From Isurus oxyrinchus (taxonomy: Eukaryota), in the NCBI GenBank assembly GCA_026770705.1, contig JANJGN010000014.1, positions 18,042,001 through 18,106,000 on the forward strand: a DNA stretch of 64,000 bases. Direction: 5' to 3'. Positions 3,664-62,864 of this stretch are shown one piece after another. A program made the position numbers and the translations under genes. The notes below the pieces were generated by a model. That model searched no databases and was not told the origin of the DNA. It saw only the letters and a list, made by a program, of their open reading frames with translations. The first letter of the stretch is position 1, and every line of letters starts with the position of its first letter.

Positions 3664-4153
3664 AATTATGACCAAGTGAGTTCCAAATGGCTCCCCTCTT
3701 TGTCCTCTCCTTATTTGATGCAACAGGTTTTTTGTATGAAAAGGATATACTTGCCAATTCAGTGAGTACTTAACTGTTTACACGCCGGGATCATAAAAAC
3801 CAATAGGACAGTTTTTCTTGAGTGTAACAAAGAAAAAAGTTAGCTTTATTATACTTAAACTGATCTAAGTAAAATAATAAAATATGCACTGCCTTTCACA
3901 CACACACACACATACATTCAAAGTTCACTCACACACAAATACAGATTACAGAGTGGGAAAGGGTAGATTGGACACATTAGAGTCCATAAAGAAAAGTAAA
4001 AGAGTATAGAATCTGCAGTTTGGTGATTCAGCTTGTTTTAGGCTGAACATGATGGCCCCGATGCTTCCGATTTAAACATGTAGGTGGCTGAAACAAAAAC
4101 AGAATTACCTGGAAAAACTCAGCAGGTCTGGCAGCATCGGCGGAGAAGAAAAG

Positions 4154-4192
4154 AGTTGACGTTTCGAGTCTTCATGACCCTTCGACAGAACT
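4154..4192 (-). ncRNA. Minimal type I hammerhead ribozyme in Penelope 3' region (left arm)
   Basis: AGUU-CUGUCGA-A-GGGUC augaa GACUC-GAAAC-GUC-AACU: stem I AGUU/AACU, stem II GGGUC/GACUC, GAAAC followed by the GUC triplet. Confidence 0.75.
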
Positions 4193-4577
4193 TGATTTCG
4201 AGTCCAGGAAAGAGTTGAAATATAAGCTGGTTTAAGGTGTGTGTGTGTGGGGGGCGGAGAGAGAGAGAGAGACAGAGGTGCTTGTGTAGACAAACAAGCA
4301 GTGATAGAAGCAGATCATCAAAAGATGTCAGTGACAATGGTACAATAGAACACATAGGTGTTAAAGTTAAAGTTGGTGATATTATCTAAACGAATGTGCT
4401 AATTAAGAATGGATGGTAGGGCACTCAAGGTACAGCTCTAGTGGGGGTGGGGGGAGCATAAAAGATTTTAAAATATTTAAAAATAAGTGGGAAAAGAAAA
4501 ATCTGTAAAATTTATAGGGAAAAAAAAGGGGGAAAAAAAGGGGGAAACAGAAAGGGGGTGGGGATGGGGGAGGGAGC

Positions 4578-7355
4578 TCATGACCTAAAGTTATTGAATT
4601 CAATATTCAGACCGGAAGGCTGTAAGGTGCCTAGTCGGAAGATGAGGTGTTGTTCCTCCAGTTTGCGTTGGGCTTCACTGGAACAATGCAGTAAGCCAAG
4701 GACAGACATGTGGGCAAGAGAGCAGGGTGGAGTGTTAAAATGGCAAGCGACAGGGAGGTTTGGGTCATTCTTGCGGACAGACCGCAGGTGTTCTGCAAAG
4801 CAGTCGCCCAGTTTACGTTTGGTCTCTCCAATGTAGAGGAGACCACATTGGGAGCAACGAATGCAGTAGACTAAGTTGGGGGAAATGCAAGTGAAATGCT
4901 GCTTCACTTGAAAGGAGTGTTTGGGCCCTTGGACGGTGAGGAGAGAGGAAGTGAAGGGGCAGGTGTTACATCTTTTGCGTGGGCATGGGGTGGTGCCATA
5001 GGAGGGGGTTGAGGAGTAGGGGGTGATGGAGGAGTGGACCAGGGTGTCCCGGAGGGAGCGATCCCTACGGAATGCCGATAAGGGGGGTGAAGGGAAGATG
5101 TGTTTGGTGGTGGCATCATGCTGGAGTTGGCGGAAATGGCGGAGGATGATCCTTTGAATGCGGAGGCTGGTGGGGTGATAAGTGAGGACAAGGGGGACCC
5201 TATCATGTTTCTGGGAGGGAGGAGAAGGCGTGAGGGCGGATGCGCGGGAGATGGGCCAGACACGGTTGAGGGCCCTGTCAACGACCGTGGGTGGAAAACC
5301 TCGGTTAAGGAAGAAGGAGGACATGTCAGAGGAACCGTTTTTGAAGGTAGCATCATCGGAACAGATGCGACGAAGGCGAAGGAACTGGGAGAATGGGATG
5401 GAGTCCATACAGGAAGCGGGGTGTGAGGAGCTGTAGTCGAGGTAGCTGTGGGAGTCGGTGGGTTTGTAATGGATATTAGTGGACAGTCTATCACCAGAGA
5501 TTGAGACAGAGAGGTCAAGGAAGGGAAGGGAAGTGTCAGAGATGGACCACGTGAAAATGATGGAGGGGTGGAGATTGGAAGCAAAATTAATAAATTTTTC
5601 CAAGTCCCGACGAGAGCATGAAGCGGCACCGAAGTAATCATCGATGTACCGGAGAAAAAGTTGTGGAAGGGGGCCGGGGTAGGACTGCAACAAGGAATGT
5701 TCCACATATCCCATAAAGAGACAGGCATAGCTGGGGCCCATGCGGGTACCCATAGCCACACCTTTTATTTGGAGAAAGTGAGAGGAGTTGAAGGAGAAAT
5801 TGTTCAACGTGAGAACAAGTTCAGCCAGACGGAGGAGAGTAGTGGTGGATGGGGATTGTTCGGGCCTCTGTTCGAGGAAGAAGCTAAGGGCCCTCAGACC
5901 ATCCTGGTGGGGGATGGAGGTGTAGAGGGATTGGACGTCCATGGTGAAGAGGAAGCGGTTGGAGCCAGGGAACTGGAAATTGTTGATGTGACGTAAGGTG
6001 TCAGAGGAATCACGGATGTAGGTGGGAAGGGACTGGACAAGGGGAGAGAGAAGGGAGTCAAGATAACGAGAAATGAGTTCTGTGGGGCAGGAGCAAGCTG
6101 AGACGATCGGTCTACCGGGGCAGTCCTGTTTGTGGATTTTAGGTAGGAGATAGAAGCGGGCCGTCCGAGGTTGGGCGACTATCAGGTTGGAAGCTGTGGG
6201 AGGGAGATCCCCAGAGGAGATGAGGTCAGTGACAGTCCTGGAAACAATGGCTTGATGTTCAGTGGTGGGGTCATGGTCCAGGGAGAGGTAGGAGGAAGTG
6301 TCTGCGAGTTGACGCTCAGCCTCCGCGAGGTAGAGGTCAGTGCGCCAGACAACAACAGCACCACCCTTGTCAGCGGGTTTGATGACAATGTCAGGGTTGG
6401 ACCTGAGAGAATGGAGTGCAGTGAGTTCAGAGAGAGACAGGTTAGAATGGGTGAGAGGAGCAGAGAAATTGAGACGACTAATGTTGCGCCGACAGTTCTC
6501 AATGAAAAGATCAAGAGAAGGTAAGAATCCAGAGGGAGGGGTCCAGGTGGAGGGAGAATATTGGAGATGGGTAAAAGGATCTGTTGAACTGGGAGAGGAC
6601 TCCTGCCCAAAGAAGTGAGCCCGGAGACGAAGACGGCGAAAGAAGAGTTCAGTATCATGCCGAGCCCGAAATTCATTGAGGTGAGGGCGTAAGGGTATGA
6701 AACTAAGTCCTTTGCTGAGCAGTGAACGTTCAGCATCGGAGAGGGGAAGGTCAGGGGGTATAGTGAATACACGGCTGGGGCTGGGATTGGAAGATGGGGT
6801 GGGGACGGAGGGACAGGCTGGGGTGGAGGGTCCTAGATGGGTGTTGGTGTCGATGAGTTGTTGGAGCTTGCGTTCCTTAGCAGTTGAGAGAAAGAGAAAA
6901 AGTTTCTTGTTGAGGCGTCGGATGAGCCGAAGGATAAAATGAAACTGGGGGCACGCGCAGCTTTGAAAAAGGGTACGGCGGTGCTGCTGGAGGGAGAGGT
7001 CGAGTGTGTTCATATGGCGGCGCATGGCACTGAGTGTGGATTTCAGAATGTGACGGGAACAGCAGTCTGAGAAACGTTTTATGTCCCGGAGATACCGGTA
7101 ATCCTGGGTGGGTTCGAAAGATGAGGGGTGGAATTTCAGTTGAAATCCACGTGGGGTAAGTCGGAGACGGAGGCAGTCACTGAGAAAGGAGATTCTCACG
7201 TTCTCACGTTGAACAATTTCTCCTTCAACTCCTCTCACTTTCTCCAAATAAAAGGTGTGGCTATGGGTACCCGCATGGGCCCCAGCTATGCTTGTCTCTT
7301 TATGGGATATGTGGAACATTCCTTGTTGCAGTCCTACCCCGGCCCCCTTCCACAA
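4578..7355 (-). CDS. Penelope-like reverse transcriptase + GIY-YIG endonuclease. Genuine element sequence is about 7192-4578; the first ~54 codons are antisense of the other arm.
   Basis: PLE motifs LLSKGLSF-P, IKPADKGGAVV, LLPKIHK, GRPIVS, MDVQSLYTSIP, QIKGVAMG, RYIDD, PFLD; Cys linker CPRKRCNTC (Neptune hallmark); GIY-YIG NLVYCIRC..CGLLYIGET...EH; C-terminal PSGLN. Confidence 0.92.
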   Translation of the reverse strand: MWKGAGVGLQQGMFHISHKETSIAGAHAGTHSHTFYLEKVRGVEGEIVQRENVRISFLSDCLRLRLTPRGFQLKFHPSSFEPTQDYRYLRDIKRFSDCCSRHILKSTLSAMRRHMNTLDLSLQQHRRTLFQSCACPQFHFILRLIRRLNKKLFLFLSTAKERKLQQLIDTNTHLGPSTPACPSVPTPSSNPSPSRVFTIPPDLPLSDAERSLLSKGLSFIPLRPHLNEFRARHDTELFFRRLRLRAHFFGQESSPSSTDPFTHLQYSPSTWTPPSGFLPSLDLFIENCRRNISRLNFSAPLTHSNLSLSELTALHSLRSNPDIVIKPADKGGAVVVWRTDLYLAEAERQLADTSSYLSLDHDPTTEHQAIVSRTVTDLISSGDLPPTASNLIVAQPRTARFYLLPKIHKQDCPGRPIVSACSCPTELISRYLDSLLSPLVQSLPTYIRDSSDTLRHINNFQFPGSNRFLFTMDVQSLYTSIPHQDGLRALSFFLEQRPEQSPSTTTLLRLAELVLTLNNFSFNSSHFLQIKGVAMGTRMGPSYACLFMGYVEHSLLQSYPGPLPQLFLRYIDDYFGAASCSRRDLEKFINFASNLHPSIIFTWSISDTSLPFLDLSVSISGDRLSTNIHYKPTDSHSYLDYSSSHPASCMDSIPFSQFLRLRRICSDDATFKNGSSDMSSFFLNRGFPPTVVDRALNRVWPISRASALTPSPPSQKHDRVPLVLTYHPTSLRIQRIILRHFRQLQHDATTKHIFPSPPLSAFRRDRSLRDTLVHSSITPYSSTPSYGTTPCPRKRCNTCPFTSSLLTVQGPKHSFQVKQHFTCISPNLVYCIRCSQCGLLYIGETKRKLGDCFAEHLRSVRKNDPNLPVACHFNTPPCSLAHMSVLGLLHCSSEAQRKLEEQHLIFRLGTLQPSGLNIEFNNFRS

Positions 7356-8438
7356 CTTTTTCTCCGGTACATCGATGATTACTTCGGTGCTGCTTCATGC
7401 TCTCGTCGGGACTTGGAAAAATTTATTAATTTTGCTTCCAATCTCCACCCCTCCATCATTTTCACGTGGTCCATCTCTGACACTTCCCTTCCCTTCCTTG
7501 ACCTCTCTGTCTCAATCTCTGGTGATAGACTGTCCACTAATATCCATTACAAACCCACCGACTCCCACAGCTACCTCGACTACAGCTCCTCACACCCCGC
7601 TTCCTGTAAGGACTCCATCCCATTCTCCCAGTTCCTTCGCCTTCGTCGCATCTGTTCCGATGATGCTACCTTCAAAAACGGTTCCTCTGACATGTCCTCC
7701 TTCTTCCTTAACCGAGGTTTTCCACCCACGGTCGTTGACAGGGCCCTCAACCGTGTCTGGCCCATCTCCCGCGCATCCGCCCTCACGCCTTCTCCTCCCT
7801 CCCAGAAACATGATAGGGTCCCCCTTGTCCTCACTTATCACCCCACCAGCCTCCGCATTCAAAGGATCATCCTCCGCCATTTCCGCCAACTCCAGCATGA
7901 TGCCACCACCAAACACATCTTCCCTTCACCCCCCTTATCGGCATTCCGTAGGGATCGCTCCCTCCGGGACACCCTGGTCCACTCCTCCATCACCCCCTAC
8001 TCCTCAACCCCCTCCTATGGCACCACCCCATGCCCACGCAAAAGATGTAACACCTGCCCCTTCACTTCCTCTCTCCTCACCGTCCAAGGGCCCAAACACT
8101 CCTTTCAAGTGAAGCAGCATTTCACTTGCATTTCCCCCAACTTAGTCTACTGCATTCGTTGCTCCCAATGTGGTCTCCTCTACATTGGAGAGACCAAACG
8201 TAAACTGGGCGACTGCTTTGCAGAACACCTGCGGTCTGTCCGCAAGAATGACCCAAACCTCCCTGTCGCTTGCCATTTTAACACTCCACCCTGCTCTCTT
8301 GCCCACATGTCTGTCCTTGGCTTACTGCATTGTTCCAGTGAAGCCCAACGCAAACTGGAGGAACAACACCTCATCTTCCGACTAGGCACCTTACAGCCTT
8401 CCGGTCTGAATATTGAATTCAATAACTTTAGGTCATGA
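7128..8438 (+). CDS. 5'-truncated duplicate of the Penelope RT C-half + GIY-YIG (second arm)
   Basis: From VLTLNNFSFN onward it matches the C-terminal part of the 4578..7355 protein apart from rare substitutions (e.g. ASCKDS vs ASCMDS). It lacks the N-terminal RT motifs, so it is unlikely to be functional alone. Confidence 0.75.
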   Translation: MEFQLKSTWGKSETEAVTEKGDSHVLTLNNFSFNSSHFLQIKGVAMGTRMGPSYACLFMGYVEHSLLQSYPGPLPQLFLRYIDDYFGAASCSRRDLEKFINFASNLHPSIIFTWSISDTSLPFLDLSVSISGDRLSTNIHYKPTDSHSYLDYSSSHPASCKDSIPFSQFLRLRRICSDDATFKNGSSDMSSFFLNRGFPPTVVDRALNRVWPISRASALTPSPPSQKHDRVPLVLTYHPTSLRIQRIILRHFRQLQHDATTKHIFPSPPLSAFRRDRSLRDTLVHSSITPYSSTPSYGTTPCPRKRCNTCPFTSSLLTVQGPKHSFQVKQHFTCISPNLVYCIRCSQCGLLYIGETKRKLGDCFAEHLRSVRKNDPNLPVACHFNTPPCSLAHMSVLGLLHCSSEAQRKLEEQHLIFRLGTLQPSGLNIEFNNFRS

Positions 8439-8822
8439 GCTCCCTCCCCCATCCCCACCCCCTTTCTGTTTCCCCCTTTTTTTCCCCCTTTTTTTCCCTA
8501 TAAATTTTACAGATTTTTCTTTTCCCACTTATTTTTAAATATTTTAAAATCTTTTATGCTCCCCCCACCCCCACTAGAGCTGTACCTTGAGTGCCCTACC
8601 ATCCATTCTTAATTAGCACATTCGTTTAGATAATATCACCAACTTTAACTTTAACACCTATGTGTTCTTTTGTCCCATTGTCACTGACATCTTTTGATGA
8701 TCTGCTTCTATCACTGCTTGTTTGTCTACACAAGCACCTCTGTCTCTCTCTCTCTCTCCGCCGCCCCCCCACCCACACCTTAAACCAGCTTATATTTCAA
8801 CTCTTTCCTGGACTCGAAATCA

Positions 8823-8861
8823 AGTTCTGTCGAAGGGTCATGAAGGCTCGAAACGTCAACT
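8823..8861 (+). ncRNA. Minimal type I hammerhead ribozyme in Penelope 3' region (right arm)
   Basis: AGUU-CUGUCGA-A-GGGUC augaa GGCUC-GAAAC-GUC-AACU; stem II is kept through a G-U wobble. Confidence 0.75.
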
Positions 8862-9889
8862 CTTTTCTTCTCCGCCGATGCTGCCAGACCTGCTGAGTTT
8901 TTCCAGGTAATTCTGTTTTTGTTTTGGATTTCCAGCATCCGCAGTTCTGTTTGTTTTTATGTAGGTGGCTGAGTTGGTTGTTCTCTGGTAGACAGTAGTG
9001 CTGGGTTGGATTCTTTTAAGAAATCTCTGTTTGCAGCAGGGTGCTCCTGAATGATGACAGTCAGCAAACAAGGCTCGGAGCTTACCATGCGAAGCAGGAG
9101 GGGCTACACTTAGGTCTTCTCCTGAAGCTGCTTGTCTTCAGTTCTGCTGAGAAAACATACTTAAAACATTCAGAAGGTTGGCTTGTCATTTGATTTTCCT
9201 TCTCCAACTGCCAGGGGGATTCAAAAGAAAGATATTGTCTGTGTATTCCAAGGGCGACATGATTAGCTTATGTCTGGAAGCTAGTTGAGACAGGGTCCCA
9301 TTGTCCTAATGATTAGTCTTAATGGCCTTTCTCCAATAGTTGAATACCTCAGGTGATTGCCACAGATGCCTTCCTAATGAGACAGGGGATGTGAGTCCTT
9401 CATGCTCCCTTGAAGTCATTGTCTTTGATGGATTTTGTAGACAGACTGACTCCGGTCCACTGAAATGGAATGTGGAGTGTATAGTAATGCAAGTTTGGGT
9501 TAGCCATCTTGGGTTGTGAGTTCCAGTTGTTTTAGCCTCTGTGTTTTTTAAAAAGTCTGTTTTTAAAAGTTCCATTCAGGTTTCCAGCCACTGGATTAAA
9601 AATCGTTATTTGGCATAAAGCACAACTTCATGACCCCATCCAGGTTGATGTGATCCACTTGCTCAGTAGCCCCTGCAACAATACCTTCAACACTCACAAA
9701 GGGAGCAGTGTTAGCGGCATGCCTTCTGTGTGTCAAAGTGACAAGAAACCCACTTATCTGTTCCCCCCTTATGGTGAGATTCAGGCTGTCTTGCTTGATT
9801 TTGCATTTCTCAACCCCAATAATGGCCAGGCTTTCTGGACAATTGTTTCCTCTGCCTGTTAATCTAGTCAAATTTGGAGGGGGACCCTC

Positions 9890-11975: not shown

Positions 11976-12508
11976 TTGCCCCTCACCTGGAATTATCACC
12001 TCCTTTTACTGCCAGCTCACAGACACATAGGACAGAGTTTTCCTGTTGGTGTGTGGGGGTGGGCCCAGCACGTCTGCGCATAAAATGGCGGGTGGTGATG
12101 TCGGGCCAGTGTTCCGATGTCACCGCGTGCCATTGCGATATTTTGTTGGGCGCCATGATATCCGCTGGGTGCCCACCCCACCATTAATTAATGGGCCACT
12201 TATCAATGAAAAATTTTCAGCGCCCGTGCAATCTTTGCGTCAGCGCACAGGCACAGCGGGCAGGAGGGTAGGGCACATTTGTATGAACCTCATCCATGGG
12301 CGGGATAAGAGGCTCACTGGGGTCGCGAGTGTGCTCTGTCGAATATTGATTTTTCAAAGTTATTGAAACTTAGCTGTGTGACCTGCAATACTTCAAAACG
12401 CATACCAGCTAGCTGCTTTGTCTGACCCTTAACCTTCAGGTCAGCACTCAAAATTGAGGAATCCTTTTTGGGCCTGCAGCTTTCAGGAAACCTTCCCTTA
12501 GCCTGGGA

Positions 12509-13696
12509 ATGGGAGCTGAACTGTCTACTGGAGGCACCTCCTCTGAGGAGGAAGCAAGGGTTAGAAGGTGGAGGAGGCCAGTAGTGCACATTCAGCCTCC
12601 AGGGGAGCCACCTTTGGGAGGAGAGGCGCAGGCACAAGGGGCGCAGGGCCAAGAGGTAGTCCAAGGTGGAAGGGGCTGCAGAAGACGCCACTATCCTGCT
12701 GCCAGGGTTTACAGGCAGCGAAGCAGCTACCTCAACATGTCTGAGGTGCAGTGCCGAAGGAGGCTCTGTCTCTCAAGGGAGACAGTCAACTATATCCGTC
12801 AGATGATAAGGCCTGACATCTCCCCTAACTGTATGGGTGGACGGCCTATAACTGTGGCTCTGAAGATCACAGCTCCCCTCAACTTCTTTGCTTCTGACTC
12901 CTTCCAGGGCTCGGTGGCTGATCTTTTGCAGTGTCTCCCAATCAGCTGTCCACACTTGTGTCAAGCAGGTTACAGACACTCTGTTTAGGCATCCATTGAC
13001 CTTCATCCACTTCCTTTGGGACCAGGCAAGACAGACACAGCGAGCCAGAGGCTTCCCCCGTGTCCAGCGTGTAATAGACTGCACACATGAGGCCATCAAT
13101 GCGCCAGCAGGTGAGCCCAGTGCCTTCGTCAACAGGAAGGACTTCCACTCCATGAACGTGCAGATAGTGTGTGATCACAGGATGCTGATTTTACAAGTCT
13201 CTGCAAGGTACCCAGGCAGCTCCCATGATGCCTATATTCTCAGACACTCCCAGGTGCCGGGGCTCTTCAGTGCTCCAGCCCAGCTGGATGGATGGCTGCT
13301 GGGTGACGAGGGCTATCCCCTCAGAAGGTGGCTCATGACGCCTCTCCACCATCCAAGAACAGAAGTTGTGCAGTGCTACGATAGGATCCACGGCTCCATA
13401 AGGGCTGTGGTGGAGAGAACCATTGGTTTTCTCAAGATGCGCTTCCGATGCCTGGACCGCTCAGGGGGCGCACTCCAGATCATGTGTCGCTGATAGTGGT
13501 TGCAGGCTGCACTCTGCACAATCTTGCGCTGGAAAGGGGGGACGCAGTGGACGATGAAGATGTAGACATATTGGCTGCGGCTGCACACGATGAGTCCAGC
13601 AGTGATTCTGAGGATGAGCAGGCACAGGGAAATGCTGACGGGGTAGACGCTGACCCGGGCATACTGCAGGGAGGCAGGGACACCCGGAGGCTTTAA
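12509..13696 (+). pseudogene. Harbinger DDE transposase (HARBI1-family), frameshifted across three ORFs
   Basis: LNFFASDSFQ, SQSAVH, GFPRVQRVIDCTH, FVNRKDFHSMNVQIVCD, PGSSHD, WLLGDEGYP, VVERTIGFLKMRFRCLD, CTLHNLA, plus an acidic tail. Confidence 0.9.
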
Positions 13697-25155: not shown

Positions 25156-28100
25156 TCAGAGGTTCAGGTAATCTGGGAGTCTGAGGACCCTTCCACTCCT
25201 CATTGACCATCTGGTCGGGTGAATGGCGGCCTCTAATAGTTGCCTGCTCTTGCTATTGGTTTGGAAGTGGTTCCAGTGCATGCTTGCCCTTGTGAATGGT
25301 GCTTCATCTTGTAATGGGGGGGCAGCCTGGCCAGCGACTCCACCTGTTGCACCTGATTCTGCCCTCTGATGTACCAACTTGATGGGAACAGGATTGGTCC
25401 TCGATTAGGCAAAGGCCTAATTGGGCCTTGTCTCCTGAGGTCTGGGATCCAAACTTTGTCGGTCCTGGTGCAGCTGTGGCAGATGCCTGGTGCAGTGTCA
25501 CCGATTGCAGTTGGAGCCCTGCTTCTGTTTGTAGGCCAAGTCTTTCTCACGCACAGCCTGGTGGCCTTTGGCTGACTGCCCTGGCAGGAGTTTCCTCGCA
25601 GGATTGGAAGTAGAGTGTGCAATTTCCTGCTCAACAAGAGCTCTGACAGGGTGAGGCCGCATTGTAGGGGGTGGACCTTTATGTGAGTAGGGCAGTGGGA
25701 AAGTCCTTGGTCTTCTTCAAAAGGGCCTTTATCATGTGTACCGCCTGTTCTGCTTCACCGTTGGACTGTGGGACCTTGAGGAGCTGGTCTTGGCGCAGAA
25801 TCAGCTGCTGTTCCTGAATTCACAAAGCATTGGTTAGCAAATTGGGGACTATTATCGGAACCAAGCCCGTCCGGGATGCTGACGGTTGAAAACATTCCCT
25901 TGGCTGCCTTGACGATTGTCCCCATGGTGCTTGTATGGAGTTTCTGGACCTCCACCCACCTGGAGTAGTAATCCATGACGTCCAGGAAGGATCTGCCATT
26001 GTGGCTGGACAGGTCTGCTGCCAGCTTTTGCTGTGGCCTGTCGGGAAGCTGTGAAGGAATTTATGCTTCTCTCCGGTCCTGGTAGTGTCAGGCGCAAGTG
26101 TGACAATTGGCAATGGTCTCTTCTATTGCCTTGGAGATGCCTGGCCACCAGGCTGTGGACTGGGCTCATGCCCCACATTTAGTGATGCCAAGATGTCCCT
26201 GGTGTGTCCTCTGGAGGACAGTCGCCTGGACGGAGGGTGGAGTGACTAGTGGCTTGTCATAGACCAGTAGGTCCCCCGTGATGGTGCAGTGGCTCTGTTG
26301 CTCAAACCACGCTGTTGCTGAAGTACCACTTGGTCGCTGATGAGGTCATGTCGCCATGATGCTGTTCTTGGCAGAGCTGTTGAAGCCAGGTCGTGGATGC
26401 CGGAAAGAGGCTAGTGTTGGCCTGGGGAAGGCCTCCACTTCGCTAACAAAGGTGGCATTGTGGTCAGTTGGAAGTTCTGCGGTGACCCTTGAAAGGACAT
26501 TGGCTGCCACCTGACATGGATGGTCTCATATGCGAAACACATGAGGTGTAGGTGAAAACACTGAACCCGAGAGGGCATCTTTGTGACCCCCGTCTCATTG
26601 AGCAGAGAGGCCAGTGGCTTGTGGTCTATCTCAATGGTGATTTTAAGGATGATGATGTAGCCCGAGGTCTCTTTGTAGGCCATATAACCCCCAAAGCTTC
26701 TTTATCATGATGGGATACCTGGTTTCTGTGTCCAATAGTCCTCTTGAAGCATAGTAGGCTGTCACCACGTGCTGTCTGGAAGCTCCTGAAAGAGGACAGC
26801 TCCGAGGCCCGTGGAGGTGTCAGCTGCTATGGTGGTGGGTTGGGTGGGGTCATAATAGGCCAGGATGTCTGTAGAGAGCAGCATGTGCAGGGAATCCCAC
26901 TCCCAGGCTTGGACCTTCCTAAGTAAGAGTCTCAGTAGCTCTGTGACCTGTGCCAAGTGGGGCAAGAATTTCACCAGCTGGTTCACCACACCAAAGGGGT
27001 GTTGCAAGTCTGGGATGGAGGAAGGAGCGGGGAAGTCGGCGATGACTTTGTCTTTCTGGAGGCTCATGTGATACCGCTGCTGCTGACAACATGGCCCAGG
27101 AAGCAGTTGGAGGTTTTTGAGAACTGGCATTTTTCGTTCAGTATTAGCCCAGCCTCCTGCAGCCATTCCAGGACCGCCGTGTGCCACTCATTGTGTTCCT
27201 GTGCCATGGCCCCATGGGCCAGAACATTGTCCATGTGGCAGACAACCCCTTGCAGGCCCTGCAGGATGCCTGACATCCCAAAGGGTAGGCGATTGAAGCA
27301 GAATCTTCCACAAGGGGTAATGAAGGTGGTAGGGAGCTGAGGTTCCTCATCGAGGGGAATTTGCCAGAAGCAGCTGTTGGCAGCCAACTTTGAGAAACTG
27401 CGTGAAAGTTTGGTCAGACTCTCATCCGCTGAGGCCATGGGGTGAACCTCCCTGGTCACTGCTTTGTTGAGCTGCTTGAGACCGACACAGATGCGGAGAC
27501 AGCCGTTCATTTTACAAACTGGGACCATCCTTGAGCACCATGTGGTGTGTTGCTTCACTGGGGAAATCACTCCCATATTTATCATGTTGTGGAGCTGGCA
27601 CCCATGAGGGGGTGGGAGGGCCTTCCGAGGAGTGAAGAGGCATAATGTCTTGGTGTCACTCCTGAGTGTAATTCTATAGGTGTTCTTAAGGAAACCTAGT
27701 CCCACAAAGAGGGTCAGGAACAATTGCCTGTATTTCAAGCCAGGCTGTGGCTGACATTTTTAGGAGGTTGAGTTCATATCAGACATTAGTAGTGAGTAGT
27801 CCTGGTTATAGACCATAGAGGGTTGTGTGGATTGTCTTGGCTCCATATTGGAGAGTAGCTGGCTGGGTGCCCTTGACTCTCAGGCAGTGTCCTCTTGCTG
27901 CGTGGAGCGGGGTGTCTGTCGGTTGGAGCCAAAGGTCTTTAAGCCATGGTGCTTTGTTGGACAGGACATTTACCTAGGCATGGTATCTGGTTTAAAAGTG
28001 GTCCAATGGCCATTCATCAAGATGTCCGCATTCCAGAATGGAGTGCTGGATCATGTGATGTCACCAAGGAAGAATGACTGGGTGCCCTCTGGATGGGTGA

Positions 28101-35149: not shown

Positions 35150-37120
35150 GAGTAAGAGGTGAGAGTGGTGAGTGTGTGGAACACGTGGGACAGAGTGTGG
35201 ATCAGGCAGGATTGAGTGTTTGGAACAGTGCAGAACAGGCAGGAGTGAGAGTGTTGAGCAGGCGGGAGTGAGAGTGTGGAACAGGCAGGAGAGAGAATGG
35301 AACAGGCAGGAGGGAGGGTGTGGAACAGGTGGAGGGGAGAGTGAAACAGGTGAGAGGGAGAGTGGAACAGATGGGAGTACGAATGTGGAACAGGCAGGAG
35401 TGAGAGTGGAACAGGTGGGAGTGAGAATGTGGAACAGGCAGGAGAGAGAGTGAAACAGGCGAGAGGGAGTGTGGAACAGACGGGAGTGTGAGAGTGTACA
35501 GATGGGAGTGAGGATGTGGAACAGGCAGGAGAGAGAGTGAAACAGGCGAGAGGGAGTGTGGAACAGACGGGAGTGTGAGAGTGTACAGATGGGAGTGAGA
35601 ATGTGGAACAGGCAGGAGTGAGAGTGGAACAGGCGAGAGGGAGAGTGGAACAGATGGGAGTGCGAATGTGGAACAGTCAGGAGTGAGAGTGGAATAGGTG
35701 GGAGTGAGAGTGTGGAACAGGCAGGAGAGAGAGTGAAACAGGCGAGAGGGAGAGTGGAACAGATGGGAGTGCGAGTGTGGAACAGTCAGGAGTGAGAGTG
35801 GAATAGGTGGGAGTGAGAATGTGGAACAGGCAGGAGTGAGAGTGGAACAGGTGGGAGTGAGAATGTGGAACAGGTGGGAATGTGAGAGTGGAACAGGCGG
35901 GAGGGAGAATATGGAAGAGACTGGAGTATGAGAGTGCACAGGCAGGAACAAGAGTGTGGAATAGGCAGGAGTGAGAGTGTTGAACAGGTGAAAGTGAGAG
36001 TGTGGAACAGGCTGGAGATAGAGTGGAACAGGCAGGAGGGAGAGTGTGGAACAGGCGGGAGTAAGAATGTGGAACAGGCGGGAGTGAGAGTGGAACAGGT
36101 GGGAATGAGAATGTGGAACATGTGGGAGTGAGAGCGTGGAACAGTCGAGAGTGAGAGTGTGGAACAGACGGGAGTGTGAGAGTGGAACAGGTGGGAGCGA
36201 GAGTGTGGAACAGATGGGAGTGTGGAACAGACGGGAGTGTGAGAGTGTACAGATGGGAGTGAGAAAGTGGAACAGGCAGGAGAGAGAGTGGAACAGGCAG
36301 GAGGGAGAGTGTGGAACAGGCAGGAGAGAGAGTGGAACAGGCAGGAGGGAGAGTGTGGAACAGGCGGGAGTGAGAGTGGAACAGGTGAAAGGGAGAGTGG
36401 AACAGGTGAGAGGGAGAGTAGAACAGACGGAAGTGAGAATGTGGAACATGTGGGAGTGAGATTGTGGAATAGCCGGGAATGAGAGTGTGGAACAGTCGGG
36501 AGAGAGAGTGTGGAACAGACAGGACTGTGAGAGTGTACAGGTAGGAGTGAGAGTGTGGAACAGGAGGGAGTGAAAGTGTTGAAAAGGTGAAAGTGAGAGT
36601 GTGGAACAGGCAGGAGCGAGAGTGGAACAGGTGGGTGTGAGAGTGGAATAGATGGGAGTAAGAATGTGGAACATGTGGGAGTGAGACTGTGGAACAGTCA
36701 GGAGAGAAAGAGAGTGGAACAGGCTGAAGGGTTGTGGAACATGTGGGAGTGATAGTTTGGAACGGACAAGAGGGTGGGCATGGAACAGAACTGAGTGAGA
36801 CTGTGAAACGGATGTGAGTGAGTGTGGAACAGACAGGAGTGAGAGTGGAACAGGCAGGAGGGACAGTGGAACAGGCGGGAGGGAGATTGTGGGACAGGCA
36901 GGAGCAACAGAGTGGAACAGGCAGAAGGAAGAGTGCAACAGGTGGGAGTCAGAGGTTGGAGCAGACGGGAGGGAGAGAGTGGAACTGGCAGGAGGGAGAG
37001 TGTGGAACAGGTGGGAGGAAGAGTGGAACAGGTGGGGGTTAGAGTTTGGAACAGGCAGGAATGAGAGCATGCAACAGACGGGAATGAGTGTGTGACACAG
37101 GGTGGAGAGTGAGAGTGTAG
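35150..37120 (+). repeat. Purine-rich degenerate minisatellite (about 21-23-nt unit GTGGAACAGGCAGGAGTGAGAGT)
   Basis: Dozens of GGAACAG-centred units; local 87-bp higher-order duplication (35431 and 35518). Confidence 0.95.
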
Positions 37121-43160: not shown

Positions 43161-43746
43161 CTGGGTGTGGTATACAGGGCTGATGGGAAGGAGTAAAGTT
43201 GAAAGAGGCGGAGGGAGTAGCTTAAAGTGAGAACTTAATAAGCAGGAATGAAATGATTGGAACTGAGGGTCTATATGAGTTTGTGTCCAAAACTGTTACT
43301 TCAAAACCCTGAACCCAATTCAGACCCCATGCCTTTTCCAATCTCACTCCCCCCACCCCACCCCCCCAAACCCTGGTATTATTACACAGCCATCCCTTGC
43401 ATTAAAGTCCTTACACGCTGAGACATCCCACCCTACAGGTCTTGAAGAAATCACTAATTAACATGAAGCCCATCTAAATAAAAAAAAAGGTCAAATCACC
43501 AGAGATGCCGAAGGTGAAAGGCTCTTTTGAGGAGCCAGATCCTTTATCAAACACATTCACTCAAACTGGGCCTCCAGGCCTACTGCTACAATTCATGGGC
43601 TTCAAAGACTTAGAGAGGGCAAAAATAGGGCTTTACAAAAATGGGAACAGTAAAGCTGGCATTGTTCTTCTTGGAGCAGAGAAGGCTAAGGGGAAATTTA
43701 ATAGAGGGGTTCAAAATTGTGAAAGATTTTGATAGAGAAGGTAGGA

Positions 43747-43886
43747 GTTCCAAAGAAAAGCCATATTGGACTCGAAATGTTAACTCTGTTTCTCTCTCCA
43801 CAGATGCTGCCAGACCTGCTGAGTTTTTCCAGCATTTTCAGTTTTTATTTCAGATTTCCAGCATCCGCATTTCGCTTTTATATCAA
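43747..43886 (+). mobile_element. Short Penelope 3'-end fragment with decayed hammerhead, inside a CR1 piece (about 43650-44180)
   Basis: gagttCCAAAGA...ggactcGAAATGTTaactc...gatgctgccagacctgctgag; possible TSD GTAGGA at 43741-43746 and 43887-43892. Confidence 0.65.
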
Positions 43887-44469: not shown

Positions 44470-44960
44470 TGACACTGCAGTGCTGCACAGTCAGAGGTGC
44501 CATTTGGGATGAGATGTGAAACTGAGGTCAAGTCTGCCCTTTCAGGTGGATGTAAATGATCCCATGACACTAGTGTGAAGAGGAGCGGGGGAATTCTCCC
44601 CGGTCTCCTGGCCAATATTTATCCCTCAACCAATATCACTCAAGTTCTGTCGAAGGGTCATGAGGACTCGAAACGTCAACTCTTTTCTTCTCCGCCGATG
44701 CTGCCAGACCTGCTGAGTTTTTCCAAGTAATTCTGTTTCTGTTTTGGGTTTCCAGCATCCGCAGTTTTCTTTGTTTTTATCACTGCAGTGGATTATCTGG
44801 TCACTATTTCATTCTGTTTGTGGAATCTTGCTGTGCGCAAATTAGCTGTTGTGTTTCCGACACTACAACAGTGACAGCGCTTCAAAAAGTACCTCATTGG
44901 CTGTAAAGAACTTCTGAGATCAAGAAAGTTTCTGTGTAAATACAAGGTTTTCTTTTTTTG
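44470..44960 (+). mobile_element. Deu-type SINE interrupted by a Penelope mini-insertion
   Basis: Homologous to 31600-32040 on both sides of 44641-44777. Confidence 0.75.
44641..44777 (+). mobile_element. 137-bp Penelope 3'-end insertion beginning at the hammerhead (ribozyme at 44643-44681)
   Basis: Nearly identical to 8821-8958; TSD TATCACT at 44634-44640 and 44778-44784. Confidence 0.9.
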
Positions 44961-48819: not shown

Positions 48820-51800
48820 GCATTGAGTCATAGATTCATTTACTGCACAAAAGGGGGCAGTTCAGCTCATTGTGCCCATGCCTGCCCTCTGCAGAGCAAC
48901 GCAGTCAGTGCGATTCCCCGTAGCCTTCAAGCTTATTTCCTTCAAGTGCCCATCCAATTTCCTTTCGAAATCATTAACCCTTTCTGCTTCCACTACCCTC
49001 ATGGGCAGTGATTTTCAGGGCATTACCACTCACTACGTAAAAAATTGCTTCCACATATTTCCCCTGCCTCTCTCGTTTAAACTCTTAAATCTGTGCCCCC
49101 TCATGCTTGTACCATTAGCTAATGGGGAGCGTTTTTCCTTGTCTACCTTATCTAAGCCTGTTATAATCTTGTACACTTCTATCAAATTTCCCCTCAATCT
49201 CCTTTGCTCCAAGGAGAACAACCCAAGCCTTTTCAATCTAACTTTGTAACTAAACCCCCTCCGTCCCTGGAACCACTCTGGTAAATCTCTGCACCCTCTC
49301 AAGGACTTTCACATCTTTTTGAAAGTGTGATGACCAGAGCTGGATGCAATCCTCTAGTTGGTGTCAAACCAGAGCTTTATAAAAGTTCATCACAATGTCC
49401 CTGATATGTAATCAATGTCTCTATTTATGAAGTCCAAGATCACTCCTTCAATAATGTCCTGCCACCTGCAAAGATCAATGCATGTGCATCACCTCCTGGT
49501 CCCTCTGTTGCTGCACACTCTTTAGAATCATCTGTTAAGTCTATATTGCCTCTTCCTACACCTTCTGAAAAAATGCATCACCTCACACTTCCCTTTATTA
49601 AATTCCATCTGCTACTTGTTTATTCATTCTGTTAGTCTTTCTATGCCCTGTTGTCAGCAATTTGTATCACCTTCACAGTTTGCCACACCTCCAAGTTTGG
49701 CATCATTGACAAATTTTGAAATTTTATTCTGTATTCCAATATCCAAATCATTTGAATATATCAAAGGAAGCAGCAGGGATGGCACTGCCCCTTGTGGATC
49801 ATCAATAGCTACCACCCTCTAGTTCAAAAAACATCCATCTACCACAATGAAGATTAAAGCAAAATACTGCGGATGCTGGAAATATGAAATAGAAACAGAA
49901 AGTGCTGGAAAAAACTCAGCAGGTCTGACAGCTTCTGTGGAGAGAGAAACAGAGTTAACGTTTTGAGTGCACTCTGAAGAAGAATCGTGCGGACTCGAAA
50001 TGTTAAACTCCAGTTCTCTCTCCACAAGACATTGCCAGGCCTGCTGAGTTTTTCCAGCATTTTCTTTTTTTATTTCATCTACCACAACTTGTTGCTTTCT
50101 GTCCTTAAGCCAATTTTTTTTATCCATTTGAACACTGACCCTCCTCAATTCCATAGCCCTGATTTTGTTAACCAGCCTTTTATGTGGAATTTCATCAATG
50201 CTTTTTAAAATCCATATAGACAACGTCCACTGAATTCCCTTTATCAACCTTTTATTACTTCATCAAAAAAGTCAATTAGATTAGTCAAGTACAATTTCCT
50301 TTTTACAAATCCATGCTGGCTCTCCTTTGTTAACTCAAACCTCGCCAAGTGCCTGTTGATTTGTTTCCCCTGAATATGAATTCCAAAACCTTACCCACCG
50401 CTGATGTTAAACTACTGGCCTGTAGTTACTTGGATTGTCCTTGTACCCTTTATGAATAAGGGTGTCACATTTGTCACTCTTCGATCTTCTGGTACCTCCC
50501 CACACCTAGGGGAGTTTAAAAGTTTAAGGTAAGCCCTTTTGCTATCTCCACCCCACTTCCTTTAACAACCTGGGATACAAGCCATCCAGGCCAGGTGACT
50601 TATCTACCCTAAGCATAGCCAGCCTTTCCAGTACCTCCTCCCTTTCAGTTTTCATGCTCTCCACTGCCTCCACTATATCCGCTTCTACCAATATTTTATC
50701 AGATTCGTCTTCTTTAGTAAACACCAATACAGAGAGCTTGTTAAGTATTCCAGCCTTACCCTGTGCCTCTGAGCATGTATCACCCTCGTTGTCCCTAAAA
50801 AGACCCACTCCATCACTGACTATCACTATTGCTGGTAGAGGATTTTTGGGTTTCTTTTATATTAACTGCCATTCTCTTCTCATTCTCTATCTTTGCCAAT
50901 CTTGTTTTCCTCTTCACCTCCCTCTCAACCTTATTGTATTTGACCTGGTTCTCACTTGAAGCATTCACCTGATATGCATCATACACCCTCCTTTTTTGTT
51001 TCATCATGACCCCTATCTTCATTGTCATCCAGCAAGCCCTGTTTTTGGCTCCTTTACCTTTGTTGGAATGTACCTAGCTTGTACCTGAAGCATCTCTTCC
51101 TTAAAGATCAATCACCCATCGTTCCGTTACAGCACCTCCTGGCAGTCTTTGGTTCCATTTTACTCTAGCTAGAACCCTACTTATTGCATTGAAATTAGCC
51201 CTCTTCCAAATTAGAAGTTCTACATTACTAATCTAAACCTTACGATATGCTGATCACTGTTATCCAATTGCTCCTCCACAGACTCTAGGCCCATCTCAGT
51301 TCCCAGTACCAGATCCAGCCATGCCTCCTTTCTAGTTAGAGTCATAGAGCCATGGAGGCCTACAGTACAGAAAAAGGCCCTTCAGTCCATCGAGTCTGCA
51401 CCAGTCAAACAAGCCTAACTATTCTAATCCCATTTTCCAGCACTAGGCCCATAGCCTTGTATGCCATGGCATCGCAAGTGCACACCCAAATACTTCTTAA
51501 ATGTTATGAGGGTTTCTGCCTCCACCACCCTTTCAGGCAGTGAGTTCCAGATTCCCACCACCCTCTGGGTGAAAAATTCTTCCTCACATCCCCTCTAAAC
51601 CTCCTGCCCCTTACCTTAAATCTATGCCCCCTGGTTATTAATCCCTCCACCAAGGGGAAAAGTTCCTTCTTGTCTACTCTATCTACGCCCCTCATAATTT
51701 TATATGCCTCAATCATGCCCCCCTCCCCCCCCCCCCAATCTCCTTTGCTCCAGGGAAAATAACCCCAGTCTATCCAATCTCCTCTCATAACTAAAACTTT

Positions 51801-54800
51801 CCAGCCCAGGCAACATCCTGGTAAATCTCCTCTGCACTCTCTCTAGTGCAATCTCATCCTTCCTATAATGCGGATTCCAGAAGTGCATGCAATACTCTAG
51901 CTGTGGCCTAACCAGCATTTTATACAGTTCCAGCATAACCACCCTGCTCTTATATTCTATGCCTCAACTAATAAAGGCAAGTATCCCATATGCCTTCTTA
52001 ACCACCTTATTGACCTGTCCTGCTACCTTAAGGGACTGGTGGACATGCACACCAAGGTCCTTCTGATCCTCGGTACTTCCCAGGGTCCTACCATTCATTG
52101 TGTATTCCCGTGCCTTGTTTGTCCTGCCCAAGTGCATCACCTCACACTTATCCGGATTAAATTCCATTTGCCACTGATCAGCCCATCTGACTAGTCCGTC
52201 TATATCTTCCTGTAATCTAAGGTTATCCTCCTCACTATTTACTACCCCACCAATTTTCATGTCATCTGTGAACTTACTGATCAATCCTCCTATATTCAAG
52301 TCTAAAACGTTTATATGTACCACAAACATCAAGGGACCCAATACTGATCCCTGTGGAACTCCATTGGACACAGACATCCAGTCACAAAAACACCCTCCAC
52401 CATCACCCTCTGCTTCCTGCCACTCAGCCAATTCTGGATCCTATTTACCAAATTGCCTTGGATCCCATGGGCTCTTACCTTCGTTATCAGTCTCCCATGC
52501 GGGACCTCATCAAAAGCCTTGCTGCAGTCCAAGTACACTACATCAAATGCATTGCCCTCATCTAAACACTTGGTCACCTCTTTGAAAAATTCAATCAAAT
52601 TGGTCAGACGTGACCTCCCCTTAACAAAACCATGCTGACTGTCCTAGATTAATCCCTGCCTCTCCAAGTGTAGATTAATTCTGTCCCTCAGAATTGCTTC
52701 CAATAGTTTCCCCACCACTGAGGTTAGACTGACTGGCCCGTAGTTCCCTGGTTTATCCCTTCCCCCCTTCTTGAATAATGGTACCACATTGGCTGTCCTC
52801 CAGTCCCCTGGCACCTCTCCTGTGGCCAGGGAGGTATTGAAAATTATTGCCAGCACCCCTGCTATCTCTCCCCTTTGCCTCACTTAACAGCCTGGGATAC
52901 ATTTCATCCGGGCCTGGAGAGTTATCTACTTTTAAGCCTGTCAGACCACTTAGAACCTCCTCCCTTTCTATGCTAATTTCTTTAATTATATCACAGTCCT
53001 TCTGCTTGATTTCCATACCCACGTCGTCCATCTCACTTGTGAACCCTACCTACATCTTCTGGCTCCACACACAAATTACCACTATGGTCCTTAATGGGCC
53101 CTATTCTTTCCTTAGTTATCCTCTTACTCTTAATGTACTTGTAAAATAACTTTGTATTTTCCTTTATTTTACCTGCCAATGGTTTTTCATGCCCCCTTTT
53201 TGCTCTCCTAATTTCCTTTTTAAGTTCCCCCCCTACACATTCTATAGTCCTCTTAAGATCCTGCTGTTCTGAGCCCTCGGTGTCTGCCATAAGCCTCCCC
53301 TTTTCTCTTTATCCAATCCTGTATATCCCTCGACATCCAGGGTTCCTTAGATTTGTTGGTCCCACCCTTTGTCTTTTCTAGAATATGTTGGCCCTGTACT
53401 CTCCCTATTTCCTTCTTGAATGAGTCTCACTGCTCTAACACAGATTTACCTAAAAGTAGCTGCTCCCAGTTCACTCTGGCCAAATCATATCTGATCTTAT
53501 TAAAATCGGCTTCCCCCCATTTAGAACTCTGATTTCTGTCCCACCCTTGTCCTTTTCTATAACAACCTTGAATCTAACGGGGTTATGATCACTATCAGAA
53601 AATGCTCCCCCACTGATACCTCCACCACTTGCCCAGCTTCATTCCCTAAAATTAAGTCCAGGACCACCCCCTCTCTTGCAGGACCTTCTACGTAAAGTTT
53701 AAAAAGCTCTCCTGGATGCATTTTAAGAATTCCACTCCGTCTAAACCTATCACACTATGACTAAACCAGTTAATGTTGGGGAAGTTGAAATCCCCCACGA
53801 TTACTACCCTATTATTTTTACACTTTTCTGAAATTTGCCTACATATCTGCTCTTCTATTTCTCTCTGACTGTTTGGGGGCCTATAGTACACTCCCAGCAA
53901 TGTGATTGCTCCTTTTTTGTTTATCAGTTCTACCTATATGGCTTCATTTGAGGAGTCTTCTAAGATCTCATCCCTCCTTACTGCTGTAATTGATTCCTTG
54001 ATGAATATTGCGATAACCCCTCCTCTATTACCTCCTTCCCTGATTGAGAATGTACTGACCAAGGAAGTTCACCAGAACACCTTTCAGAAATCATTTCCCA
54101 TCCCGCAAACATCACCCCTCCTTAGTCTTTACTCTAACATTATCCCAATTGATATTTGGGCAAATAAAGTCCCCTAATATCACCACTCTACAGTTTCATG
54201 TTTCCCTGCAGATTTGTTCCATCTCTCTCTCTCTCTCTGTCACTGTTTGGAGGTCTATAGAGTGCCCTAAGTAGCGTGATCTTAGCTTTTTTTTTGCTTC
54301 TTTGTTCCAACCAAATGGATTCTGTCCTTGCCCCTTCAAGGACATCCGTTCTTTCCAACACTACATGTCTTCCTTAATCAGTACTGCCACCCCACCTCTC
54401 ATTTTTCTTTCTCTATTTTTTCTGAACACTTTATATTCTTGAATATGAAGCACCCAGTGCTCACCACTTTTAAGCCACATTTCTATTATTGCCACTACAT
54501 TGCATTCCCACATGGTTATTTCTGCTTGTAGCACACCGACCTTATTCACCATACTTTGTGCCTTTGTGTGCAACCATTGTGATCCTGTTTTTGCATTCCT
54601 CATGGTCCTTCTTGTCTAATATGGTCCTACTTCTGTCTCTGGTACTCTCACTTTATACACCTTATTCCTCTTTTCTGCTTCTAGATGCCGCTGCCCATTC
54701 CCTTGCCAATTTAGTTTGAACTCTCCCCAACACACCAGCCAAGCTCCCTGCAAGGACATTGGTCTCAGTCCTGTTGAGGTGCAACTCATCCCTTTTGAAT

Positions 54801-58040: not shown

Positions 58041-58668
58041 TTTTTGTACTTTCCTGAGGTGTGGGGTGTTGCTGGCAAGGACGGCATTTGTTGCCCCATC
58101 TATAATTGTCCTTGAACTGAATGGCTTGCTAGGCCATTTAGAGGGCCACTTTGCTCAGCGTCTGGATGGCATTAGTGAATCAAATGGGTTTTTACACATA
58201 GTTGCCATGGTCACTTTCAATTCCAGATTTATTAATCGAATTTAAATTTCATCAGCTGCCTTGGTAGGGTTTGAGCACATGTCCCAGAGGTTTAGCCTGG
58301 GCCTCTGGATTACTTGTCCAGTGACACCACTGTCTCCCTATTCTACTCTACTCATTCCCATGTGAAGCAACTCTTCATGTTAGTCAGGTGGATGAAGTAA
58401 ATATTAGTGAGCACCTTGGGAATACTGACCACAATAAAAGGCTTCAGATAAAACCAGGAGGGGGGGAAAGTCAGTACAAAACCTAAAACACCGGATTAGA
58501 AAGGGCAAGAATTCAGAAAAATTGAGAAACTGGCACATCAGATCAGAGCACAACAATAGCATGTTTTCAGAAGAAAAGAAATTGTAAAGGTACAGAATAA
58601 GTATGAAGTAAAAACTGGTAATATTCAGCAGGTCAGGCAGTATCCATAGAGAGAGAAACAGAGTTAAC

Positions 58669-60350: not shown

Positions 60351-61229
60351 GACAGTTTAACAATCGTGTGACAATAAAATACGTTTTTAGAGGCAGATAC
60401 AATGTTAATCTTGCCTCATGTCACAATGACTGTGACTGATAGATTTTTGTTAGGTAGGGGTATTAAAGAAGTTAAGATGAGTCAATGAGATTGAAGTATA
60501 GATCAGCCATGATTATATTAGAGCAAACTCGAAGGGCTGAGTGGCCTCGTCCTGTTCTTATGCCCCGATGAAGACGAGGCTTTAATGAACTCTTTTGATT
60601 TGTAAATTATCATACGGTTATCAATTTGTATGCATTAATCTCCTTGACAGTGTCTCCCTCACTATCAAATCAAACAATCCTGGATGAAGATTGCAAATCA
60701 ATTAATCAATATACAATTTCTGTGTGGATTCCTTTATTGTCTTTCTCCTATTGTTTTATCAATGCTTCATCAACAAGGGCTCATGTTAGACAAGCTTCAC
60801 AGTTCAATGGTCTGCATATACAAGCAAATAAATTCCAAAAAGCCTAGGCCTCATTTGTGGAGAGATGTTTGATAACCAGGTGTAAAAGCAACCAGAGTAT
60901 TGTTACTCTCCCAAGGCCCCACTCCAGTCTCTCATTCAACAATTCAGTGAACACTGAAGCAATAGAAAGGAATCAACTAAATGATTTGTACCTATGCAAA
61001 AGTGGCAATGATTTATAATTCACCAAACTGAACAGGTTAGTTTCTGGGCTGATCTCTAAGACTGAACATTTAAAGATCATTTCGTAGCTAAACCCACATC
61101 TCTGATTGAAAATGCTGTGTTGATTGAATAGATAGAGCTGGAGTGAACTGGAAAAACTGTGACAGAGGAATTCTACACAATATGAGCGAATAGGCAGGAG
61201 TTCTGCTTATGGTGGGAGAAGGTACTCAG

Positions 61230-62862: not shown

Positions 62863-62864
62863 AG

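What the first reader, a model, noticed from the sequence alone, without database searches (positions are those of the whole stretch)
8823..8861. Hammerhead ribozyme with a family-fixed non-canonical core (CUGUCGA instead of CUGANGA)
Seen: three copies from two separate insertions (4154-4192, 8823-8861, 44643-44681) all read CUGUCGA while stems I/II, GAAAC and the GUC triplet are intact; stem II varies only by a wobble. The related element at 49974 has the canonical CUGAAGA. Known: PLEs carry minimal type I hammerheads that almost lack stem III and are thought to act as dimers; A6 is normally highly conserved. Inference: this recently mobile subfamily propagates with an A6U core, so it is either a naturally attenuated or variant ribozyme, or cleavage is dispensable and the fold is retained for RT recognition.
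Basis: partly seen in the sequence, partly recalled or inferred. Interest (0 to 1): 0.7.

Follow-up and report, generated by a model that had tools for sequence, protein, structure and literature searches.

The report
Retrotransposon hammerhead with lineage-fixed altered core
A very abundant jumping gene carries a small self-cutting RNA motif in which a normally fixed core letter changed (A to U), apparently once, and stayed changed through many later waves of copying, so the cutting is likely weak or not needed for jumping while the RNA shape is probably still useful.

Summary
Observation confirmed. The motif at 8823-8861 is the minimal type I hammerhead in the pseudo-LTR of a Neptune-type Penelope-like element (3,353-bp unit, RT plus GIY-YIG ORF).

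U6 is fixed. The genome holds 56,803 exact CUGUCGA copies against 81 CUGANGA in the same context, about the level of a neutral transversion. It is not recent: A6U arose in an older subfamily (CUGAUGA to CUGUUGA, C7 later), survived a ladder of at least eight subfamilies, and occurs in runs of three organisms.

Inserted copies do not come from cleaved RNA. Of 50 5' ends near the motif, 38 lie within 4 nt of 8823 (likely the transcript start) and 1 lies at the GUC site. An older A6/U6 mixture also shows no peak there.

After A6U, all five later changes in the motif fell on hammerhead-tolerated positions (P about 0.01), but the catalytic core alone is not significantly conserved (P 0.13).

Best reading: a strongly weakened ribozyme kept as a structured 5' element. 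Cleavage was not tested. No report of natural A6U was found; one key paper was unavailable. The scan noted the same variant on other DNA of this genome.

The parts
8823..8861 (+). Minimal type I hammerhead motif: stem I 8823-8826/8858-8861, core CUGUCGA 8827-8833 (U6 at 8830), extra A 8834, stem II 8835-8839/8845-8849, GAAA-CG-UC 8850-8857 (loop-less palindromic stem III, C17 at 8857). 8823 is also the commonest 5' end of short copies
4154..4192 (-). Same motif in the inverted arm of the same insertion (U6 at 4185)
44643..44681 (+). Same motif at the 5' end of a solo stub (U6 at 44650)
4092..7199 (-). Long arm of the insertion: 5'-truncated PLE ORF (7199-4578, no stops, lacks about 55 N-terminal residues and the upstream pLTR), 3' UTR and hammerhead; ends at the near 3' end, without tail
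7200..8958 (+). Short arm: 3' part of the ORF (to 8438), 3' UTR, hammerhead and tail
8925..8958 (+). 34-nt PLE 'tail', present on one arm only; lies between the two clusters of 3' ends
   Evidence: tail defined in PMC8557442 and PMC11167929
4078..4091 (.). Left 14-bp target-site duplication
8959..8972 (.). Right 14-bp target-site duplication
8810..8821 (+). Upstream copy of the stem II 3' strand plus GAAA-UC, acquired stepwise in the youngest subfamilies; role unknown
44641..44777 (+). Solo pLTR stub (hammerhead to tail) inserted in another repeat, 7-bp TSD (44634-44640 and 44778-44784); ends ambiguous by microhomology
49863..50077 (.). Old palindromic stub of a related A6 subfamily; CUGAAGA at 49974-49980, stems decayed

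Best explanation
This is the minimal hammerhead motif in the pseudo-LTR of a Penelope-like retrotransposon; its A6 changed to U, likely once, in the source lineage and stayed U through all later subfamilies sampled, likely weakening self-cleavage strongly, and the inserted copies were made from uncut RNA, so the motif likely persists as a structured 5' element rather than as a needed cutter. Steps: (1) Shown: units lie in tandem, so each ORF is preceded by the previous unit's hammerhead. (2) Inferred: transcription starts at the first base of stem I (8823 equivalent), so the motif is nt 1-39 of the RNA. (3) Shown as end clusters, with the mechanism taken from the anole element: reverse transcription starts at two internal sites about 100 and 135 nt downstream and runs through the intact motif to the RNA 5' end, which gives stubs and head-to-head pairs. 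(4) Inferred: U6 lowers cleavage, which costs nothing for insertion and may even raise the share of full-length capped RNA. (5) Inferred: stems and remaining core are held by RNP or 5'-end recognition and/or an overlapping internal promoter.
For: Fixation: 56,803 U6C7 against 81 A6 and 234 C6/G6 (24 of the first 100 are G, so about 56 G6); A6 is at neutral transversion level. Among 99 copies picked by a downstream anchor only, 87 of 88 that keep the core have U6 and none has A6. Single origin: ladder-like tree of 83 copies with A6 rows basal and A6 back-mutants scattered on terminal branches; subfamily series S1 (A6) to S2 (U6U7) to S9. Uncut template: 38 of 50 5' ends at -3..+4 and 1 of 50 at the cut site. 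Genome-wide, 304 breaks at the cut site against 205 at a control 4 nt upstream, out of about 95,828; only 2 of 30 inspected cut-site cases are clean flank junctions. No 3' end lies at GUC. Copies with further core damage were inserted: U4G is 65 of the first 100 of 1,094 U4 variants, shared by both arms in 3 of the 3 U4G loci where both arms were read, and an identical double change in GAAA occurs in 3 separate insertions. Literature: all CUGA single and double mutants except the C3-G8 swap had low activity (PMC9901934, passages). A6C cuts activity strongly in Mg2+ (PMC7151607, PMC3088659). Minimal HHRs are weak even as dimers (PMC4209133). Catalytic HHR mutants do not affect PLE insertion in vitro, and uncut RNA is the main template (PMC11167929). 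Naiad PLEs without HHR reach high copy numbers (PMC8557442). Fold kept: 5 of 5 changes from S2 to S9 are consensus-compatible (P 0.005-0.011), and 0 changes at 20 constrained sites against 18% at four-fold ORF sites (P 0.017).
Against: No cleavage assay was possible, and I found no measured A6U rate for a PLE hammerhead. The missing cut-site peak does not depend on U6: the older mixed A6/U6 subfamily also shows none (39 of at most 6,842), so insertion ends say nothing about whether cleavage happens at another step. G5, G8, A9, G12, A13, A14 and A15.1-U16.1 are all kept, and the triplet moved from GUU to GUC after A6U, as an active ribozyme would. The anole PLE hammerhead cuts only with its protein, so protein could rescue U6. 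The U4G copies did not form one supported clade (15 rows) and did not take over. The ten catalytic-core sites alone are not significantly conserved (P 0.13). The transcript start is inferred from DNA ends only; no raw RNA reads were available.
Confidence: 0.55

Rival explanations
1. It is a working but slow natural variant ribozyme (dimeric, protein-assisted or ion-dependent). It cuts after GUC at a step that leaves no trace in insertion ends, such as uncapping, turnover, trimming read-through RNA or circularisation, and U6 tunes the rate down.
For: All other catalytic residues are kept over about 0.2 neutral substitutions per site. GUU changed to GUC, and only tolerated changes occurred. Natural A6C remains active with Mn2+ (PMC7151607). 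The PAc hammerhead is protein-assisted. U6 is predicted to weaken an inactive helix between the CUGANGA box and CGUCA that A6 forms (misfold probability 0.72 for U6C7 against 1.00 for a natural A6C7 copy; 0.00 for two U6U7-GUU copies against 0.84 for an A6U7-GUU copy). U4G sources did not become dominant.
Against: CUGA mutants had low activity in a full mutational scan, and minimal HHRs are weak to begin with. No revertant lineage ever amplified. No cut-site ends are seen. Core-only conservation is not significant. Folding z-scores are near 0, so the misfold numbers are weak evidence.
Confidence: 0.3
2. It is a dead relic under no RNA-level selection. The sequence persists because little time has passed on the source lineage, or because it overlaps DNA promoter elements at +1 to +40.
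For: P 0.13 for no change in the ten core sites. The downstream 100 nt are also well conserved. Penelope has an internal promoter in the pLTR (PMC2377424, passages).
Against: The stem changes seen keep pairing (A-U to G-U, U-A to U-G), and the other changes concentrate in loop II, N7 and N17 (P about 0.01). A DNA element would not predict that pattern.
Confidence: 0.1
3. The upstream duplicate of the GAAA-UC half (8810-8821) pairs with the same CUGUCGA box as a permuted hammerhead and cuts at about 8821/8822, which would make the 5'-end peak a cleavage product rather than a transcript start.
For: The duplicate arose stepwise to a 10-nt identity in S7-S9. It can pair with stem II or neighbouring sequence. 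Some junctions at -1..-3 are ambiguous.
Against: 5' ends at the same base occur in older subfamilies that lack the duplicate (for example L101, L108, L116, L238, L252). S7 has GAAC instead of GAAA. Stem I would be 2 bp with a 1-nt loop, and the core would still carry U6.
Confidence: 0.05

Closest known systems
Minimal type I hammerheads (min-HHR) of metazoan PLE pseudo-LTRs (Cervera and de la Pena 2014, PMC4209133; abstract to most of the reference list read, supplement searched)
   Same: Location in the pLTR, short stem I, extra nucleotide between 9 and 10.1, G10.1-C11.1 pair, palindromic loop-less 15.2-16.2, predicted dimer.
   Different: Position 6 is U, lineage-fixed. The only core variant described in that text is U3-A8, and the supplement passages seen show CUGANGA cores.
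Natural A6C hammerhead of phage Bcep176 (PMC3088659 section 8 and passages; PMC7151607 abstract to methods)
   Same: Natural substitution at A6 with the rest of the core intact.
   Different: A6C in a single phage motif with a full architecture and measured Mn2+-favoured activity; here A6U in a minimal motif present in tens of thousands of copies, activity unmeasured.
PAc Poseidon element of Anolis (Frangieh et al. 2024, PMC11167929; main text to start of methods read)
   Same: Tandem units, two internal RT start sites bounding a tail, uncut RNA as template, no ends at the cut site.
   Different: PAc has a working, protein-assisted hammerhead that overlaps the ORF start. Here the ORF starts about 175 nt after the motif start, and the protein has the Neptune-type linker motif.
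Naiad/Chlamys PLEs lacking canonical HHR (Craig et al. 2021, PMC8557442; passages)
   Same: High copy number without a canonical hammerhead.
   Different: Those have N-terminal EN and no motif. This element has C-terminal EN and keeps a near-complete motif, an intermediate state.

Membership tests
EN+ Penelope-like element | Single ORF with RT and C-terminal GIY-YIG endonuclease | tested here: met
   918-aa ORF in L051; RVT_1 E 6.9e-8; GIY-YIG E 0.00089 at 821-855, below the curated cut-off
EN+ Penelope-like element | Tandem or inverted insertions, pLTR, 30-40-nt tail on one end | tested here: met
   3,353-bp tandem units, head-to-head arms, 34-nt tail
Neptune clade | CX2-5CxxC motif in the RT-EN linker | tested here: met
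   CX4CX2C before the endonuclease; motif defined in PMC8557442, also shared with Nematis
Neptune clade | RT phylogeny with reference Neptune elements | not tested
   No reference proteins were fetched
Minimal type I hammerhead | Stems I and II, extra nt 9.1, palindromic minimal stem III, NUH site | tested here: met
   Sequence; stem II pairing probability 0.98-0.99, stem I about 0.4 as monomer
Minimal type I hammerhead | Consensus core C3 U4 G5 A6 N7 G8 A9 / G12 A13 A14 | tested here: not met
   A6 is U; the other positions are met
Minimal type I hammerhead | Descent from a canonical hammerhead | tested here: met
   Subfamily series from CUGAUGA to CUGUUGA to CUGUCGA
Hammerhead ribozyme (functional) | Self-cleavage after NUH | not testable with these tools
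   No assay; only contigs, no raw RNA reads
Non-LTR retrozyme | Short non-coding tandem units each bounded by a hammerhead | tested here: not met
   Unit is 3.3 kb and coding; stubs end at the tail, not at the cut site

The most novel reading that the evidence does not exclude
U6 defines a natural, still-active hammerhead variant whose slow cleavage is rescued by dimerisation and the element's own protein. Damping the ribozyme at the transcript's 5' end was a selfish gain that let this lineage replace its A6 relatives and reach about 100,000 copies. An unchecked note of A6C in another shark-like genome would make position 6 a repeated target.
Probability: 0.2. Interest if true: 0.75.

Novelty: new variant of a known kind. 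Interest (0 to 1): 0.48.

Why it matters
What PLE hammerheads do is an open question: they are nearly universal in canonical PLEs, yet weak in vitro and dispensable for insertion in the one reconstituted system. This genome holds a natural experiment, an ordered series of subfamilies before and after a change at a conserved core position, with tens of thousands of copies. Comparing natural A6 and U6 motifs with and without the element's protein would show directly whether catalysis or only the fold is selected. It also shows that motif searches requiring CUGANGA would miss the dominant family in such genomes.

Tried and rejected
Sporadic mutation or CpG artefact: rejected. CUGUUGA as mere CpG decay: rejected for the older subfamilies, where U7 is the majority state. 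Similarity search: biased towards the query, so its loci were left out of the core counts.

Rfam scan: no hammerhead hit. Folding z-scores: uninformative; my structure string was out of register, so the result was discarded. One search had an off-by-one grouping error and was redone. U4G as one clade: not shown. A distance of about 0.35 read off the tree was dropped for the four-fold-site estimate of 0.18-0.21. No splice joint was seen in RNA-guess contigs; that is no evidence either way. RNA 5' ends could not be read because only contigs were offered.

Papers not held: Lunse et al. 2017 on PLE hammerhead variants, Hammann 2012 (29), one id for a Nelson and Uhlenbeck review (53), Martick and Scott 2006 (81). 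Lunse et al. and its supplements could list a U6 variant. One of three supplement files of PMC4209133 was not searchable, and bioRxiv supplements are closed. Searches that found no natural A6U PLE hammerhead (listings only). No protein homology search or structure prediction was run.

Full report
Observation. All three motifs are at the stated coordinates and read CUGUCGA, with intact stems, GAAAC and GUC. The copies at 4154 and 8823 belong to one insertion (4092-8958). It consists of two 5'-truncated arms joined head to head at 7199/7200, a 14-bp target-site duplication, and a 34-nt tail on the right arm only. The copy at 44643 is a solo stub with a 7-bp duplication. The CUGAAGA motif at 49974 is a decayed copy of an older subfamily.

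The element. A tandem array elsewhere in the genome (L051) gives a 3,353-bp unit with a 918-aa ORF carrying RT, a weak GIY-YIG hit and a CX4CX2C linker motif. That fits an endonuclease-positive Penelope-like element of Neptune type as defined in PMC8557442 (passages); no clade tree was built. The genome has 4.98 Gb. That it is a shark is my recalled impression and the wording of earlier AI notes; it was not tested.

Is U6 fixed? Yes. In the young 23-nt context there are 56,803 CUGUCGA copies, 81 with A6 and 234 with C6 or G6, of which 24 of the first 100 listed are G. A6 is therefore about as rare as the other transversion. To avoid selecting on the core, I took 99 of the first 100 listed matches of a downstream anchor (95,828 matches). 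These are consecutive places on one contig, and paired arms are not independent. Of the 88 that retain the core, 87 have U6, one has C6 and none has A6.

History. Older relatives keep CUGAUGA or CUGAAGA (9,049 matches with an intact 3' half). In an older subfamily picked by a downstream anchor, both A6 and U6 occur. A tree of 83 copies (760 columns; ORF end, 3' UTR and motif, core columns included; midpoint root) is ladder-like, with A6 rows at one end and A6 back-mutants on scattered terminal branches. Grouping 156 of 162 copies by upstream diagnostics gives a series: S1 (A6, 5.5% non-CpG divergence), S2 (U6U7, 3.9%), S3 (4.0%), down to S8 and S9 (0.6-1.4%). C7 came later. The groups are small (2-37 copies) and picked by exact anchors, so the divergences are underestimates. 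Contigs of runs coded as organisms A, B and C all carry U6: no other letter reaches 5% at that place on the young reference, and A>T reaches 23-73% of depth on an A6 reference.

Where copies begin and end. Of the 99 copies, 42 continue into the upstream UTR, 7 break between -40 and -5, and 50 start near or inside the motif. Of those 50, 38 start within -3..+4 of 8823 (15 exactly there) and 1 at the cut site. Genome-wide, 304 copies break just before the 3' cleavage product, against 205 at a control 4 nt upstream. Of 30 cut-site cases inspected, 18 are fold-back junctions, 10 are internal changes and 2 are clean flank junctions. An older mixed A6/U6 subfamily gives 39 such matches among at most 6,842, many of them point mutations. 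The 3' ends cluster about 100 and 135 nt downstream, never at GUC. This matches the two internal RT start sites and the uncut template reported for the anole element (PMC11167929). I infer that 8823 is the transcript start, in line with a start and promoter inside the pLTR of Penelope (PMC2377424 and PMC8557442, passages); no RNA ends were available. The absence of cut-site ends holds for A6 relatives too, so it shows that cleavage products are not templates, not that U6 is inactive.

What A6U likely does. In a full mutational scan of one hammerhead, all CUGA-region mutants but the C3-G8 swap had low activity (PMC9901934, passages). Natural A6C is slow in Mg2+ but active in Mn2+ (PMC3088659, PMC7151607). 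Minimal PLE hammerheads are weak even as dimers (PMC4209133). Strong attenuation is therefore likely, but unmeasured. Copies with extra core damage were inserted as well. U4G makes up 65 of the first 100 of 1,094 U4 variants but was not shown to be one clade. An identical double change in GAAA occurs in three insertions.

Is the rest still selected? From S2 to S9 the 39-nt motif changed at five places: N7, two in loop II, N17 (U to C) and a wobble in stem II. All five are hammerhead-compatible (P 0.005-0.011). Four-fold sites of the ORF differ by 11 of 60 over the same span. No change at 20 constrained sites then has P 0.017, but no change at the ten catalytic-core sites alone has P 0.13. Constraint on the fold is moderately supported; constraint on catalysis is not shown. 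Folding predicts that A6 with C7 and GUC forms a perfect inactive helix that U6 weakens, which is a caveat for revertant design more than evidence of function.

Verdict. This is a real, lineage-fixed A6U variant of the known PLE minimal hammerhead. It is most likely a strongly weakened ribozyme kept as a structured 5' element (0.55). A slow, assisted ribozyme (0.3), a relic without RNA-level selection (0.1) and a permuted upstream cut (0.05) are the rivals. Six literature searches (listings only) showed no natural A6U PLE hammerhead, but Lunse et al. 2017 could not be read. Of the 2026 retrozyme preprint I read the first fifth and passages; of PMC3846280, PMC6765202 and PMC12192606, passages only. 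Earlier AI notes of this scan report the same variant on other DNA of this genome, and an A6C form in another genome that I could not check. My reading was recorded before I saw them.

Noticed in passing
window 8810-8821; subfamilies S5-S9: The sequence just upstream of the motif changed stepwise until it matched the stem II 3' strand plus GAAA over 10 nt. This may be template switching or selection for an alternative pairing that masks the 3' copy of the motif.
   Followed up: partly
G000 C1 sample; window 8820-8823: 5' ends peak at +1 with a second cluster at -3 in the youngest subfamilies, after an A was inserted next to the initiator-like context; many are perfect head-to-head palindromes.
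   Followed up: partly
L113, L115, L120, L128, L251: An A6 side subfamily shows the same stem II wobble and GUU-to-GUC change as the U6 lineage: parallel change or recombination between subfamilies.
   Followed up: no
L177, L178, L192, L194, L044/L045, L049/L050, L090: Rare variants are often shared by both arms of one insertion, which suggests both arms come from one template or source locus.
   Followed up: partly
window 8840-8896 and 8906-8912: An ATG in loop II opens an 18-codon upstream ORF, and a splice-donor-like GT follows; no splice joint was seen in contigs.
   Followed up: partly
window 43746-43886 (+) and about 58620-58670: Further old, decayed ends of related elements; the first has a broken core.
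   Followed up: no
window 12458-13493 (+): Fragments that resemble a PIF/Harbinger-type transposase (recalled resemblance).
   Followed up: no
window 27064-27759 (-), 51964-52440 (-), 62839-63903 (+): Fragments that resemble a Gypsy-type RT and CR1-type LINE ORFs (recalled resemblance).
   Followed up: no
window about 35200-37100 and 61190-62770: Long tandem arrays of 21/23-nt and 44-nt units.
   Followed up: no
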